Notes under the pieces: generated by a model | Seen by the model: the letters and a program-made list of their open reading frames with translations, nothing else | The model's database searches: none | Told to the model about the DNA's origin: nothing | Translations under genes and position numbers: made by a program | Shown here: positions 61,038 through 62,973 of the stretch, piece by piece | Numbering within the stretch: the first letter of the stretch is position 1 | Layout: each line of letters begins with the position of its first letter | DNA from: Candidatus Peribacteria bacterium | Lineage (GTDB): Bacteria > Patescibacteriota > Gracilibacteria > Peribacterales > Peribacteraceae | Assembly (NCBI GenBank): GCA_041691135.1 | Contig: JBEPVF010000001.1 | Span: forward strand, 261,493-325,492 | Length of the DNA stretch: 64,000 nt | Direction of reading: 5' to 3'

Positions 61038-61991
61038 TTAAAAGAGGCTCAACTGTCCCTCCCCTTTCTTCGTCACAGCAACTTGTGCCTCTTCCTGCTG
61101 AAAGTGCAACAGACCGTAGGGCGACTTACGCAGGGTATCCAGACGCCGGGATAGCATGGAGAATTCCAAGTCGCGGAAGAGCCCCAGCACCGAATCAATC
61201 GACAGGTTTTGCAGCGCAAGTTGTTCGAGCGGCACAGGCAACGGTTCCACGCATACCAACGTGGCCATGTGCTTGCAGAAGAATGCCTGCTCACGGTCGT
61301 GTTCCAGCTTCTGACGGGCTGACCCCTTCACTTCCTCGATATGTTCATAAATGCCCTCGAGTGTGCCGTAGGTTTGAAGCAGCGAGGCGGCCGTTTTTGG
61401 GCCGATTCCCATCACTCCCGGCAGGTTGTCCGACGCGTCACCTGTCAGCCCCTTATAACAAGGTATCTGATCCGGCCGCACGCCGTACTTTGCCAGAATC
61501 TCATTCGGCCCCAGATACTCGGCCTGTTGGTAGGCTTTGTGCGGGATGGCAATGCGAATCTTATCGCTGGCAATCTGGAACAAATCGCGGTCGCCGGTCA
61601 CCACCGTTGCGCGCATCCCCTCCTTCACGGCTGCCTGTGCGTAGGTGCACAGGAAATCATCGGCTTCGTACTTCTTGTCCGCCACGTGCGCCAGACCAAG
61701 GCGTTCGATCATCTCGATAATCCGCGGGATCTGGACGAAGAAATCATCCGGCGTCTCGGCCCGGCCATCCTTATAGGTGGCGTTCTCCTGATGGCGAAAG
61801 GTCTCTTCGCCTTCGTCGAAACAGAAAAGCAAACTATCCGGCTCCTCTGTTTTAAGGATCGTAATCAGCATGGAAGCCACCCCAAACACCGCGTTCGTCG
61901 GCTCCCCGCTCGCTGTCTGCATCCCACGTGGAATGGCGTAGTAAGCCCGATACATTAAATGATGGCCGTCGATCAGAACGAGATGTTTCAT
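61038..61991 (-). CDS. Stand-alone 5'-3' exonuclease/flap endonuclease (PolI N-terminal domain family)
   Basis: LIDGH..MYRAYYA, TNAV.G, YK.GR, YEADD, TGDRD, GDASDNLPGV.GIG.KTA. Ends with no polymerase domain. Confidence 0.92.
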   Translation of the reverse strand: MKHLVLIDGHHLMYRAYYAIPRGMQTASGEPTNAVFGVASMLITILKTEEPDSLLFCFDEGEETFRHQENATYKDGRAETPDDFFVQIPRIIEMIERLGLAHVADKKYEADDFLCTYAQAAVKEGMRATVVTGDRDLFQIASDKIRIAIPHKAYQQAEYLGPNEILAKYGVRPDQIPCYKGLTGDASDNLPGVMGIGPKTAASLLQTYGTLEGIYEHIEEVKGSARQKLEHDREQAFFCKHMATLVCVEPLPVPLEQLALQNLSIDSVLGLFRDLEFSMLSRRLDTLRKSPYGLLHFQQEEAQVAVTKKGEGQLSLF

Positions 61992-62065
61992 AGAGAAGAT
62001 GGCTTGCCCGGCGTAGCTCCACAGAGCGAAGTCGGGTGTCCGTCGATCAGCACAAGATGCTTCAT
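61988..62065 (-). other. 25-codon upstream mini-ORF containing a recoded duplicate of the exonuclease N-terminus plus a REP-like repeat
   Basis: MKHLVLIDGH-PTSLCGATPGKPSSL*. Its TGA overlaps the exonuclease ATG (ATGA). Confidence 0.7.
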
Positions 62066-62397
62066 GGCGGATAGGGTGCGCCAGGAGACGGTCAGATACA
62101 AGCGAAGTGAGCGAAAACACCTGATCAAAAACAGTCACTGTTGCTACTTCAATAGTTGGAGCGCTATCGCTTTCTTGTGCGCGTGTTCCCGTTCTTTCCC
62201 TCCAGCAAACGCGAGCTTCTGTAGTCAGCGTCTCCCTATCCGTATAACTGCAGATTTAGTGACTTCTGGAATAGAAAAGCTCAAATATAATTAAAATTAA
62301 TATACTACAAAAGTCAACATGCACAGACTCCACAGGAACCCCATTTTTTGCTATAATGGAAGGTCATCTGTACATCAAACCTGACACACAAAAATCC

Positions 62398-62973
62398 ATG
62401 AATCCCATCAATATCAAAGCGCGCCTGGAACAGAAGCTGCAAGACAAGCTGGATATGCAAGCGTCACTCAGCTGGCCCAAGGAACCAAAGCGTCCAATGC
62501 TCTGCATTCCGACAGGAATGACTGATTCACTGGGCGGCAAACTGATGGCCGACGTGCTCCCCGGCATCTTGAGTCTGCAGACAGAACTTCTGATCCTCGG
62601 AAAAGGCTCCGCCCAGTACGGTGAGTTCTTCACCAAGCTGGCCAAGGACCAACCGCATCGCGTGCACATTGTGGCAAACGATGAGGCATCGATGATCAAG
62701 ATGATCAACGCCGCCGACATGGCCCTCTTCTTCAGCACCGAAGGCGAAGAGGAACTGAAGGCTTGTCTGGCCGCTGGCGCTGTCCCGCTGTCCCCTGCCC
62801 GCTCCCCACTCGACGATTACAATCCTGCGCAGGAGAGTGGCAATGCGTTCCTCTACGAAGGTGATTCGAAGTGGTTATGTTTCGCCTCGCTGGTTCGCGC
62901 GATGGAAACGTTCAAACTGCCGTACGACTGGCGGACAATTCAGAGGCATGGGATGGAAACACAAATTGCATGA
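62398..62973 (+). CDS. Glycogen synthase (GT5) C-terminal-domain-only protein
   Basis: KARLEQKL, LLILGKG...Y...F, AADM, GAVP, DYNP..ESGNAF.Y, LVRA.E.F....W..IQ..GM. The in-frame upstream ATG at 62356 is also possible. Confidence 0.7.
   Translation: MNPINIKARLEQKLQDKLDMQASLSWPKEPKRPMLCIPTGMTDSLGGKLMADVLPGILSLQTELLILGKGSAQYGEFFTKLAKDQPHRVHIVANDEASMIKMINAADMALFFSTEGEEELKACLAAGAVPLSPARSPLDDYNPAQESGNAFLYEGDSKWLCFASLVRAMETFKLPYDWRTIQRHGMETQIA

What the first reader, a model, noticed from the sequence alone, without database searches (positions are those of the whole stretch)
61962..62080. Synonymously recoded duplicate of a gene's first 10 codons bracketing a small repeat, with translational coupling
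Seen on the minus strand: ATG AAG CAT CTT GTG CTG ATC GAC GGA CAC (62065-62036) and ATG AAA CAT CTC GTT CTG ATC GAC GGC CAT (61991-61962) both encode MKHLVLIDGH. All five differences are at third codon positions. The 44 bp between them hold the REP-like CTTCGCTCTGTGGAGCTACGCCGGGCAAGCC. The upstream copy follows a -10-like hexamer (CACCCT, 7 nt) and reads as a 25-aa mini-ORF whose TGA overlaps the real ATG. Purely synonymous divergence means the two copies come from different alleles under selection, not from a simple target-site duplication. Inference: the scar of an element or allele-replacement process that inserts into a gene's 5' end, brings a replacement start, and keeps expression through termination-reinitiation.
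Basis: partly seen in the sequence, partly recalled or inferred. Interest (0 to 1): 0.75.

Follow-up and report, generated by a model that had tools for sequence, protein, structure and literature searches.

The report
Hairpin insertion with duplicated gene start
A small hairpin-forming repeat has landed inside the start of an essential DNA-repair gene of an uncultured groundwater-type bacterium, and the gene survives because its first ten codons were duplicated behind the insert; the same trick recurs at transfer-RNA and housekeeping genes across this bacterial family.

Summary
On the minus strand, two 30-nt copies encoding MKHLVLIDGH (62065-62036 and 61991-61962) flank 44 nt, and the upstream 25-codon mini-ORF ends in a TGA that overlaps the true ATG. 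The gene is a stand-alone 5'-3' exonuclease of a Candidatus Peribacteraceae (CPR) genome.

The 44 nt hold a 34-nt hairpin element (62036-62003). It is single-copy in this genome but a dispersed family in Peribacteraceae: 72 of 200 genomes, against 3 weak hits in 336 genomes of other families.

Elsewhere the element sits just 5' of tRNA and tmRNA genes and of AlaRS, TrmD, Adk, LepA-like and CarA genes. There it lies inside a duplication that regenerates the gene's end. Four 3'-end cases also exist.

Twelve of 81 exonuclease loci are filled. Filled and empty alleles alternate among near-identical relatives. One empty allele is an A/B recombinant (loss), and one young insertion has identical copies plus a new ATG.

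Copy differences are overwhelmingly synonymous (53:9 and 26:5 codons). This probably reflects recombination between alleles, but selection on the upstream copy where it sits is not excluded.

The organism lacks an anti-SD sequence and the gene looks leaderless. In 15 of 18 filled protein loci the mini-ORF stops within -4 to +20 nt of the real start, which fits termination-reinitiation. I found no description in print.

The parts
62073..62078 (-). -10-like hexamer CACCCT, 7 nt upstream of the upstream ATG; probable promoter of a leaderless transcript
   Evidence: Sequence. At the same position, 40 of 68 empty orthologous loci have TAnnnT 5-8 nt before the start codon (31 at exactly 6 nt), against 3 of 68 in a control window. 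The hexamer here lacks the first T, so the assignment for this locus is by position only.
62036..62065 (-). Copy A: relic of codons 1-10 of the exonuclease gene (MKHLVLIDGH). It is the start of the mini-ORF. Its last base is also the first base of the element.
   Evidence: The sequence upstream of copy A matches the sequence that directly precedes the gene in the empty allele of a same-genus relative (L003/L102).
62003..62036 (-). 34-nt hairpin element E: a 6-bp outer stem (with an A.C mismatch here), an internal loop, inner stem GCTC/GAGC with loop TGTG, and a 3' tail CAAG
   Evidence: The family was defined. Covariation is shown (88.7% of cells paired against 35-47% with slid partners; 52 cells changed on both sides against 19.8 in shuffles, 0 of 500 shuffles as high).
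61992..62002 (-). 11-nt pyrimidine-rich spacer (ccatcttctct). It is either filler or the diverged left end of the right-hand repeat.
   Evidence: the gapped alignment lets the 40 nt before E align to the 40 nt after E; score 44 against a shuffle maximum of 30, most of it from the coding part.
61988..62065 (-). Mini-ORF of 25 codons plus TGA. It reads copy A, the element and the spacer, and its stop overlaps the real ATG (ATGA).
   Evidence: The same geometry holds in 15 of 18 filled protein-gene loci.
61962..61991 (-). Copy B: codons 1-10 of the intact gene
61038..61991 (-). Intact gene: stand-alone 5'-3' exonuclease, 317 aa
   Evidence: Pfam PF02739 (3.3e-50) and PF01367 (4.1e-30). Orthologues were found in 41 of 41 genomes searched.

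Best explanation
A 34-nt hairpin element of a Peribacteraceae-specific dispersed family was inserted after base 29 of the 5'-3' exonuclease gene. The insertion came with a direct duplication of the target (here about 30-40 nt), so an intact gene start (copy B) lies on the element's 3' side and a relic start (copy A) stays next to the native promoter. This step is shown by comparison. Such insertions into essential genes survive only when the duplication spans the gene's end. That explains why the element is seen at the first 12-33 nt of tRNA, tmRNA and housekeeping genes and at gene 3' ends; this step is inferred. The transcript probably starts at copy A's ATG (leaderless), and the organism has no anti-SD. 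Ribosomes would therefore start at copy A, read through the element, stop at the TGA overlapping copy B's ATG, and restart there; this step is inferred from geometry kept in relatives. Filled alleles persist for long times, are lost by recombination between copies A and B, and are reshuffled by homologous recombination with other alleles. That reshuffling most likely produces the synonymous-only differences; loss and mosaic blocks are shown, and their role in the differences is inferred.
For: Family and structure: the pattern occurs in 72 of 200 family genomes and 38 of 84 genera, up to 11 copies per genome, with 0 hits for the reversed control. It occurs in 23 of 64 family genomes against 3 of 336 genomes of other families in the class. 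Hairpin covariation is shown.

Gene-end duplication: by a strict criterion, 24 of 72 copies examined have a direct repeat that ends at the element. Fifteen of 72 have a same-strand tRNA starting 1-132 nt after the element. Other targets are tmRNA and AlaRS, TrmD, Adk (two loci), an EF-Tu-type GTPase and CarA. Four 3'-end duplications were found.

This gene: 11 of 80 further exonuclease loci are filled, at two insertion points 6 nt apart. Filled and empty alleles alternate among near-identical proteins.

Events: in L143 vs L153 the copies are identical over codons 3-10 and the insert supplies a new ATG TCC. L102 is an A/B recombinant (2 of 2 informative sites like A, then 4 of 4 like B). Mosaic blocks are seen in L112/L114 and L116/L122 (all).

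Expression: the 16S 3' end lacks CCTCC and 85 of 908 long ORFs have an SD-like motif. Ca. Peribacter riflensis is listed as lacking CCUCC (PMC10783764, passages read). A -10 box lies at 5-8 nt in 40 of 68 empty loci against 3 of 68 in the control window. The mini-ORF stop lies within -4 to +20 nt of the real start in 15 of 18 loci, with 5 exact ATGA overlaps.
Against: No RNA or ribosome data exist: no RNA run holds the locus, so the transcription start and the restart are untested. The -10 hexamer here (CACCCT) lacks the usual first T.

Copy A evolves like coding sequence. Differences between A and B fall 61 at codon position 3, 10 at position 1 and 1 at position 2 in 12 exonuclease loci. There are 26 synonymous and 5 non-synonymous codons in six loci of five other genes (P = 0.007 against a model with copy A neutral). 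In the trio L116/L117/L132, copy A is conserved while the promoter next to it is not. A plain relic should decay, so either recombination refreshes it or it has a use that this explanation does not name.

Three of 18 loci break the stop geometry (L112 at -42, L143 at -17, L162 an in-frame fusion). The insertion mechanism is unknown: most tRNA loci carry a filler that begins with 5-9 nt copied from just past the insertion point, which a plain staggered-cut duplication does not predict. The sample of copies is not unbiased. It consists of the 30 best matches, five hand-picked multi-copy genomes and three copies from two same-genus genomes (G001, G003). A stricter gapped test calls only 14 of 81 copies duplication-positive.
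Confidence: 0.7

Rival explanations
1. Copy A is functional where it sits. Ribosomes that start at copy A make the real enzyme by hopping over the 74 nt (element, spacer, copy B) from the last copy-A codon to the matching codon of copy B, as recalled for phage T4 gene 60. Alternatively, the 74 nt are removed at the RNA or DNA level. Either way copy A encodes the protein's true N-terminus part of the time.
For: Copy A shows a protein-coding substitution pattern: 53 synonymous against 9 non-synonymous codons in 12 exonuclease loci and 26 against 5 in other genes. It is conserved where the adjacent promoter has diverged. In the adenylate kinase pair, the A copies differ by 1 nt and the B copies by 3. 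A conserved hairpin starts right at the would-be take-off codon.
Against: Copy B also keeps its ATG and a coding pattern, and the mini-ORF stop is kept at copy B's start. That fits restart and is not needed for hopping. The same architecture occurs at tRNA and tmRNA genes, where translation plays no part. Relic copies beyond stop codons at gene 3' ends show the same coding-like differences, including Ser TCA/AGC, so selection on the relic where it sits is not required. There is no stop codon right after the take-off codon. Nothing was measured.
Confidence: 0.08
2. The two copies come from different alleles. The element marks the end of a DNA block imported from a diverged relative (recombination anchored by homology in the gene body, with an illegitimate joint at the element). 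On this view copy B is foreign and copy A is native.
For: In L112, copy A and its upstream region are nearly identical to the empty relative L114, copy B plus about 120 nt is about 15% diverged, and the gene then returns to 97.5% identity. L116 and L117 share identical spacer and copy B but differ in the inner hairpin and upstream. The intact copy always lies on the element's 3' side. Coding-like differences occur in untranslated 3' relics.
Against: Young cases have identical copies (L143 codons 3-10; L080 38 nt identical; many tRNA loci), so the duplication arises locally. The filler that copies 5-9 nt past the insertion point is target-specific. The genes are mosaics throughout, so blocks near the element may be coincidental. 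For this window no relative is close enough to test the idea (nearest 74% protein identity).
Confidence: 0.15
3. Assembly artefact: a strain-chimeric join created a false tandem repeat.
For: The genome is a metagenome-assembled draft of 35 contigs, and repeats with single-base differences are typical of collapsed strain variation.
Against: The same arrangement is present in 11 other assemblies that carry different study codes in their record titles, with the reading frame and stop geometry kept. A second assembler's 18-kb contig spans it with no differences (same sample, so only weak support). The element has covarying stems across 66 distinct copies.
Confidence: 0.01
4. Remnant of site-specific integration: an integrase-borne element carrying a replacement gene end integrated into the gene, and later lost its interior, leaving joined attachment sites.
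For: The target spectrum (tRNA, tmRNA, ends of protein genes) and duplicated gene ends resemble what I recall for integrative elements.
Against: No larger form was seen at any of the 89 copies inspected; the interval is always under about 180 nt. The same 34-nt hairpin serves unrelated targets whose duplicated parts share no sequence. In tRNA genes the insertion is in the D-loop region near the 5' end, not at the anticodon or T loops that I recall as usual. There were no hits on viral contigs.
Confidence: 0.04

Closest known systems
REP / REPIN elements mobilised by RAYT (Y1 HUH) transposases
   Same: A short imperfect palindrome of about 30-35 nt, dispersed and lineage-specific, sometimes in inverted pairs and composite arrays. 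Y1_Tnp genes are present in 134 of 200 family genomes, and by my hand count in 60 of 72 element-positive against 74 of 128 element-negative genomes.
   Different: Low copy number (0-11 per genome by my pattern; 1 here). It sits inside gene ends with 12-56-nt target duplications. It is strongly polar relative to the intact gene copy. The two Y1 genes found next to a copy have it on one side only. Twelve element-positive genomes, including a closed one (G066), have no Y1_Tnp match.
MITEs that insert into or next to genes (Correia elements, RUP, Rickettsia palindromic elements; recalled)
   Same: Small, non-coding, structured and dispersed; they can be co-transcribed and even translated as part of host ORFs.
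   Different: Those make short fixed target duplications (as I recall) and do not regenerate a gene end. Here the duplication is long and variable, and it is what keeps the gene alive.
Integrative elements that carry a replacement gene terminus in their attachment site (tRNA/tmRNA-targeting islands and prophages; recalled)
   Same: It works like them in outcome: the target gene is split, and an intact end is supplied next to the insert.
   Different: There is no integrase-bearing element. The insert is 34 nt plus filler, young duplicates are local copies, and the 5' rather than the 3' part of tRNA genes is involved.
Termination-reinitiation (translational coupling) at overlapping stop/start codons
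   Same: An ATGA overlap of the mini-ORF stop and the main start; no SD available.
   Different: The upstream ORF is not a gene. It is a relic of the same gene's own start fused to a mobile hairpin, and it probably begins at the 5' end of a leaderless mRNA.
Phage T4 gene 60 bypass cassette and mitochondrial 'byp' elements (recalled)
   Same: A mobile, hairpin-forming insert inside an essential coding sequence, tolerated through an unusual translational route.
   Different: Here an intact duplicate start follows the insert, so ordinary restart suffices. Bypass is only an unexcluded possibility.
P12 helix of bacterial class A RNase P RNA
   Same: In three metagenome RNase P RNAs, the P12 helix plus the following CAAG is 32 of 34 nt identical to one dispersed copy and a median 27 of 34 to 88 copies. 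tRNA and tmRNA precursors, the commonest targets, are RNase P substrates.
   Different: Those RNase P genes lie on 58-66% GC contigs of distant organisms. This genome's own P12 is minimal, as it is in all 10 family RNase P RNAs where I could locate it. The direction of any transfer is unknown.

Membership tests
REP/RAYT system | Short imperfect palindrome conserved as a structure | tested here: met
   11 pairs, 88.7% of cells paired, covariation mostly at pair 7-30 (GC 20, CG 16, AU 12, UA 2)
REP/RAYT system | High copy number, extragenic | tested here: not met
   1 copy in this genome and at most 11 per genome by the pattern. Many copies lie inside duplicated gene ends.
REP/RAYT system | Cognate Y1 transposase gene flanked by the repeats | tested here: not met
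   at the two loci where a Y1 gene is within 500 nt of a copy, the copy is on one side only, and none lies near the two of this genome's four Y1 matches that were inspected. Only 4 loci were inspected.
REP/RAYT system | Conserved GTAG/CTAC tetranucleotide at the foot of the hairpin (recalled feature) | tested here: inconclusive
   CTAC is present inside the 3' internal loop in about half of the copies (the others have CTTC), not at the foot.
Leaderless mRNA | Promoter -10 element about 6-7 nt upstream of the start codon | tested here: inconclusive
   For the gene family it is met (40 of 68 against 3 of 68 in the control window). For this locus only CACCCT is present, at 7 nt.
Leaderless mRNA | Mapped transcript 5' end at the start codon | not testable with these tools
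   No RNA run holds the locus
Termination-reinitiation coupling | Upstream ORF stop overlapping or within a few nt of the downstream start | tested here: met
   (ATGA); 15 of 18 filled protein loci within -4 to +20 nt
Termination-reinitiation coupling | Downstream translation depends on upstream translation | not testable with these tools
   This needs reporters or ribosome profiling.
Transposon-type target-site duplication | Direct repeats of target sequence immediately flanking the insert, identical at birth | tested here: met
   L080 has 38 nt identical and L143 is identical over codons 3-10. The repeat starts 0-4 nt after the element in 7 loci including this one.
Transposon-type target-site duplication | Fixed, short duplication length | tested here: not met
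   lengths run from 8 to about 56 nt, and many loci have 7-60 nt of filler between the element and the right repeat.
Diversity-generating retroelement (template/variable repeat pair) | Differences between the repeats confined to adenines of the template | tested here: not met
   the five differences are G/A, T/C, G/T, A/C and C/T.

The most novel reading that the evidence does not exclude
The element is a copied fragment of RNase P RNA: helix P12 plus the first bases of the joining region that follows it. On this reading, the chimeras 'tRNA bases 1-13 / P12 / next 5-9 tRNA bases' found upstream of tRNA and tmRNA genes arise by template switching (by a reverse transcriptase or another polymerase) within the RNase P-substrate complex, where, as I recall from the solved complex, the tRNA elbow (the D and T loops) lies against the joining regions on either side of P12. 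The product then integrates next to the parent gene. This would be an RNA-templated route that writes part of a ribozyme into the genes of its own substrates. Copies in protein genes, such as the one in this window, would be secondary spread.
Probability: 0.08. Interest if true: 0.9.

Novelty: new variant of a known kind. Interest (0 to 1): 0.72.

Why it matters
**A rule for tolerated insertions.** The locus shows how a tiny mobile hairpin can live inside essential genes of a reduced genome: the insertion duplicates the gene's end, so nothing is lost. This gives a simple, testable rule for where such insertions are tolerated.

**A natural test of SD-free translation.** The filled alleles make it possible to study how ribosomes reach an internal start codon in an uncultured CPR lineage that lacks the Shine-Dalgarno mechanism. 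They supply ready-made mini-ORF and main-ORF pairs, and some differ at residue 2, so metaproteomics could read out which start is used.

**Markers for recombination.** Filled and empty alleles alternate between near-identical strains, and one loss by recombination between the copies is documented. These loci are therefore usable markers for recombination and turnover in natural Peribacteria populations.

**Consequences for annotation.** The relic starts create false upstream starts and N-terminal extensions. In this window, table-11 ORF calling gives a 366-aa GTG form.

**A possible origin.** The unexplained near-identity to an RNase P RNA helix, together with the preference for RNase P substrates, would point to a new kind of origin for a mobile element if it holds.

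Tried and rejected
**Repeat family within this genome.** Rejected: 1 copy only.

**Rfam match for the locus.** None is meaningful: one sub-threshold RydC hit, 14.9 bits against a gathering score of 48.

**A stable RNA structure spanning the locus.** Rejected: minimum free energy -24.5 kcal/mol, z = +0.78.

**Duplication bounded by the transcription start (an RNA 5' end).** I held this idea. I dropped it as a general rule because young cases place the left edge at about -25 (L080), at least -18 (L038) and +7 (L143). In old cases the apparent edge at the ATG, or at tRNA position +1, may simply be where constraint begins.

**Y1 transposase as the mobilising enzyme.** Inconclusive: the association is weak, it is confounded by relatedness, and there is no flanking arrangement.

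**Viral vehicle.** 0 matches on viral contigs.

**The element as this family's own RNase P P12.** Rejected for the 10 of 30 loci where my regular expression located P12; the other 20 were not located.

**Taxon of the contigs with the element-like P12.** Only shown to be distant from this genome.

**Strict gapped census of contexts.** Too conservative for 12-16-nt tRNA repeats, and its ORF-based context calls are noisy. I use it only as a lower bound (14 of 81).

**RNA evidence.** No RNA holder was listed.

**Reads.** Only contigs could be laid, so rare empty or excised forms cannot be excluded.

**Literature.** Searches (listings seen) found no description of this element or architecture. Neither did passages read in PMC10783764, PMC9297842 and PMC4736985. 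Supplements were not seen, so a repeat listing in a supplement could exist. Statements about T4 gene 60, byp elements, integrative elements, MITEs and the RNase P-tRNA complex are recalled and were not read here.

Full report
**1. The observation.**
On the minus strand the window reads ATG AAG CAT CTT GTG CTG ATC GAC GGA CAC (62065-62036), then 44 nt, then ATG AAA CAT CTC GTT CTG ATC GAC GGC CAT (61991-61962). Both stretches encode MKHLVLIDGH. All five differences are at third codon positions. The upstream ATG opens a 25-codon frame whose TGA (61990-61988) overlaps the second ATG (61991-61989). The repeat scores 19, against a maximum of 8.5 in shuffles. The downstream copy starts a 317-aa stand-alone 5'-3' exonuclease (PF02739 and PF01367).

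The organism is a Candidatus Peribacteraceae bacterium (Peregrinibacteria, candidate phyla radiation), judged from the record titles of its nearest relatives. The draft genome is 1.74 Mb in 35 contigs.

**2. The spacer holds a hairpin element that is a family, but not in this genome.**
It occurs once in the genome even at 6 of 30 mismatches and with a structure-based finder (0 hits in a shuffled genome).

Across the bacterial family, a degenerate 27-nt pattern matches 72 of 200 genomes and 38 of 84 genera, with up to 11 copies per genome. The reversed control matches nowhere. In a class-wide sample the pattern is found in 23 of 64 family genomes, but only as 3 single weak hits in 336 genomes of other families. 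It gives 0 hits on viral contigs.

The unit is 34 nt (window 62036-62003). It has a 6-bp outer stem, a small internal loop, a 4-bp inner stem with a tetraloop, and a 3' tail CA(A/G)G. On 66 distinct copies, 88.7% of cells pair, against 35-47% when the partners are slid. Fifty-two cells are changed on both sides, against 19.8 in shuffles (0 of 500 shuffles as high). In other exonuclease loci the inner hairpin is replaced by unrelated sequences that still pair. The RNA fold of the whole locus is unremarkable (z = +0.78).

**3. The architecture is general.**
I inspected 72 copies: the 30 best matches, 37 from five hand-picked multi-copy genomes, three from two same-genus genomes (G001, G003), this window, and its same-genus counterpart. 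By a strict criterion, 24 have a direct repeat whose left copy ends at the element.

The targets are as follows.
- tRNA genes of nine specificities: 15 of 72 copies have a same-strand tRNA starting 1-132 nt after the element, and none has the mirror arrangement.
- The tmRNA gene.
- Protein genes: AlaRS, TrmD, adenylate kinase (two genera), an EF-Tu-type GTPase and CarA, besides the exonuclease.

With the element removed, the left copy continues for 5-9 nt that still match the gene in most tRNA loci. A filler of 3-60 nt follows, then the intact gene. In seven loci, including this one, the right repeat begins 0-4 nt after the element, which is a plain repeat-element-repeat layout with a 37-53-nt repeat.

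Four loci are 3'-end versions. A gene of at least 164 codons (L091, L081; both ORFs run to the end of the locus), 729 codons (L201) or 497 codons (L046) stops 3-8 nt from the element on the opposite strand. A relic of its last 10-12 codons plus the stop lies on the other side. In every one of these cases the intact copy and the gene body are on the element's 3' side. One exception has an 8-nt repeat and the gene on the other side (L064).

An independent metagenome scan (19 stretches, 17 analysable) gave one more tRNA case and one more 3'-end case. The rest were intergenic composites or RNase P RNA.

**4. This gene in relatives.**
Eleven of 80 further exonuclease loci are filled, which makes 12 of 81 with the window. 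Nine have the element after the second base of codon 10, as here. Three have it after the second base of codon 8, so the gene was hit at least twice.

On a quick maximum-likelihood tree of 80 proteins, filled and empty alleles are neighbours with very short branches: L116/L122 at 0.004 and 0.009, L143/L153 at 0.013 and 0.028, and L103/L102 at 0.034 and 0.038 (the careful tree search did not finish).

Nucleotide comparison of such pairs shows three kinds of event.
- **Gain.** Relative to L153, L143 has gained the element, 27 nt of filler, a new ATG TCC and a 23-nt copy of codons 3-10. Its two copies are identical there.
- **Loss.** The empty L102 carries copy A's synonymous variants at codons 3-4 (2 of 2 informative sites) and copy B's at codons 6-10 (4 of 4). 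It therefore arose from a filled ancestor by recombination between the copies.
- **Exchange.** L116 and L122 are identical from about codon 17 onward but unrelated upstream of that. L112 matches the empty L114 in copy A and upstream, differs by about 15% over copy B and the next roughly 120 nt, and then returns to 97.5% identity.

**5. The synonymous pattern.**
In the 12 filled exonuclease loci, copies A and B differ at 72 bases: 61 at codon position 3, 10 at position 1 and 1 at position 2. That makes 53 synonymous and 9 non-synonymous codons of 102, with the non-synonymous ones mostly at codon 2. In six loci of five other genes the counts are 26 and 5. A model with copy B constrained and copy A neutral is rejected at P = 0.007 for the other genes. 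For the exonuclease set it is rejected at P = 3.5e-5, but those loci are not independent.

In the trio L116/L117/L132, copy A is 27-28 of 30 conserved while the promoter beside it has diverged and the inner hairpin has been swapped. Two readings remain.
- Copy A is under selection where it sits.
- Both copies repeatedly descend from working gene ends through recombination between alleles.

I favour the second reading for three reasons. Untranslated relics beyond stop codons show the same coding-like differences, including Ser TCA/AGC. Mosaic blocks and an A/B recombinant are documented. Some tRNA relics have decayed.

**6. Expression.**
The genome's 16S rRNA 3' end lacks CCTCC. Only 85 of 908 long ORFs have an SD-like motif upstream, and base composition shows a -10-like signal at -12 to -7. 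A published survey lists Ca. Peribacter riflensis among organisms lacking CCUCC (PMC10783764, passages read).

In 40 of 68 empty exonuclease loci a TAnnnT hexamer lies 5-8 nt before the start codon (31 at exactly 6 nt), against 3 of 68 in a control window. The gene is therefore most likely leaderless. In this window CACCCT occupies that place, 7 nt before copy A's ATG.

After the insertion, the intact start is internal and has no SD. In 15 of 18 filled protein loci the frame opened by copy A runs through the element and stops between -4 and +20 nt of the intact start, with five exact ATGA overlaps. The exceptions are L112 at -42, the young L143 at -17, and the in-frame fusion L162. The element's 3' half is read in three different frames in different loci, so it is conserved as nucleic acid and not as peptide. 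This geometry is what termination-reinitiation needs. No expression data exist.

**7. Mechanism of insertion.**
This is unknown. The following are established:
- a local duplication of 8 to about 56 nt at birth;
- frequent filler that begins with a short copy of the bases just past the insertion point;
- strict polarity relative to the intact copy;
- no transposase gene tied to the element.

These features fit template switching during replication or repair, or one-ended copying from the hairpin, better than a staggered-cut transposase. That is inference. The bias to the first 12-33 nt of genes needs no targeting, because only duplications that span a gene end leave the gene intact.

**8. An unexplained link.**
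In three metagenome contigs the element is the P12 helix of a class A RNase P RNA (305, 279 and 207 bits). Its CAAG tail aligns to the conserved bases that precede GGUGAAA. That P12 is 32 of 34 nt identical to the copy in one exonuclease locus, a median 27 of 34 to 88 dispersed copies, and 28 of 34 to the window's copy.

The contigs are 58-66% GC, and their MraW is only 30% identical to this genome's, so they belong to distant bacteria. This genome's own P12 is minimal, as it is in all 10 family loci where I could find it. The commonest targets, tRNA and tmRNA precursors, are RNase P substrates. Whether this reflects origin, capture or transfer is open.

**9. Verdict.**
It is wrong that a local target duplication is excluded.

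The locus is one old, solitary member of a family-wide and apparently undescribed class of insertions. I found no description in six literature searches or in passages of three papers. I rate it a new variant of a known kind (small hairpin repeats), with an unusual way of being tolerated by the host.

Noticed in passing
L199:1193-1626, L212:5757-6185, L211:4056-4316: The 34-nt element is the P12 helix of class A RNase P RNAs on high-GC metagenome contigs of distant organisms. It is 32 of 34 nt identical to the dispersed copy in L060.
   Followed up: partly
Exonuclease loci L102-L181, aligned start position: At the position of the start codon, 10 of 68 empty loci have ATC and 5 have ATA (16 have GTG), many with a -10 box at the usual 6 nt. 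This suggests non-canonical starts on leaderless mRNAs, or misplaced starts.
   Followed up: no
Upstream of the exonuclease gene in L013, L007, L026, L010, L014, L111, L122, L169, L170, L172: Long inverted repeats built from tandem 7-8-nt units lie just upstream of the promoter. Each genome has its own unit sequence. They look like a second, different class of structured intergenic element or terminator.
   Followed up: no
G000:C9:2933-4401 (16S rRNA, L194): The 16S 3' end lacks the CCTCC anti-SD core, and upstream regions of long ORFs are G-poor with a -10-like signal at -12 to -7. This points to genome-wide SD-independent, often leaderless initiation.
   Followed up: partly
L066 (G009:C9): The LepA-like gene has a second, degenerate element and a third partial copy of its start further upstream, which suggests repeated insertions at one gene. 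L044 has three copies of a tRNA-Met 5' end, and L090 has two elements in tandem.
   Followed up: no
L034, L036, L203, L205, L207, L217: A recurrent composite: the element, then an inverted element-like hairpin with a longer inner stem, then a terminator-like hairpin followed by a T-rich run. It is conserved between genomes.
   Followed up: no
window 61038-62138 (-): Mechanical ORF calling gives a 366-aa GTG-started ORF that runs through copy A's region in another frame, and a 46-aa TTG form of the mini-ORF. Automatic annotation could mis-start this gene.
   Followed up: no
Family genomes, e.g. G021:C37:11259-11597, G008:C22:265843-266184: A Y1_Tnp domain lies inside open frames of about 1000 aa in many family genomes. 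These are much longer than ordinary IS200-type transposases.
   Followed up: no
window 62356-62973 (+): The divergently placed 205-aa ORF next to the locus has no Pfam match.
   Followed up: no
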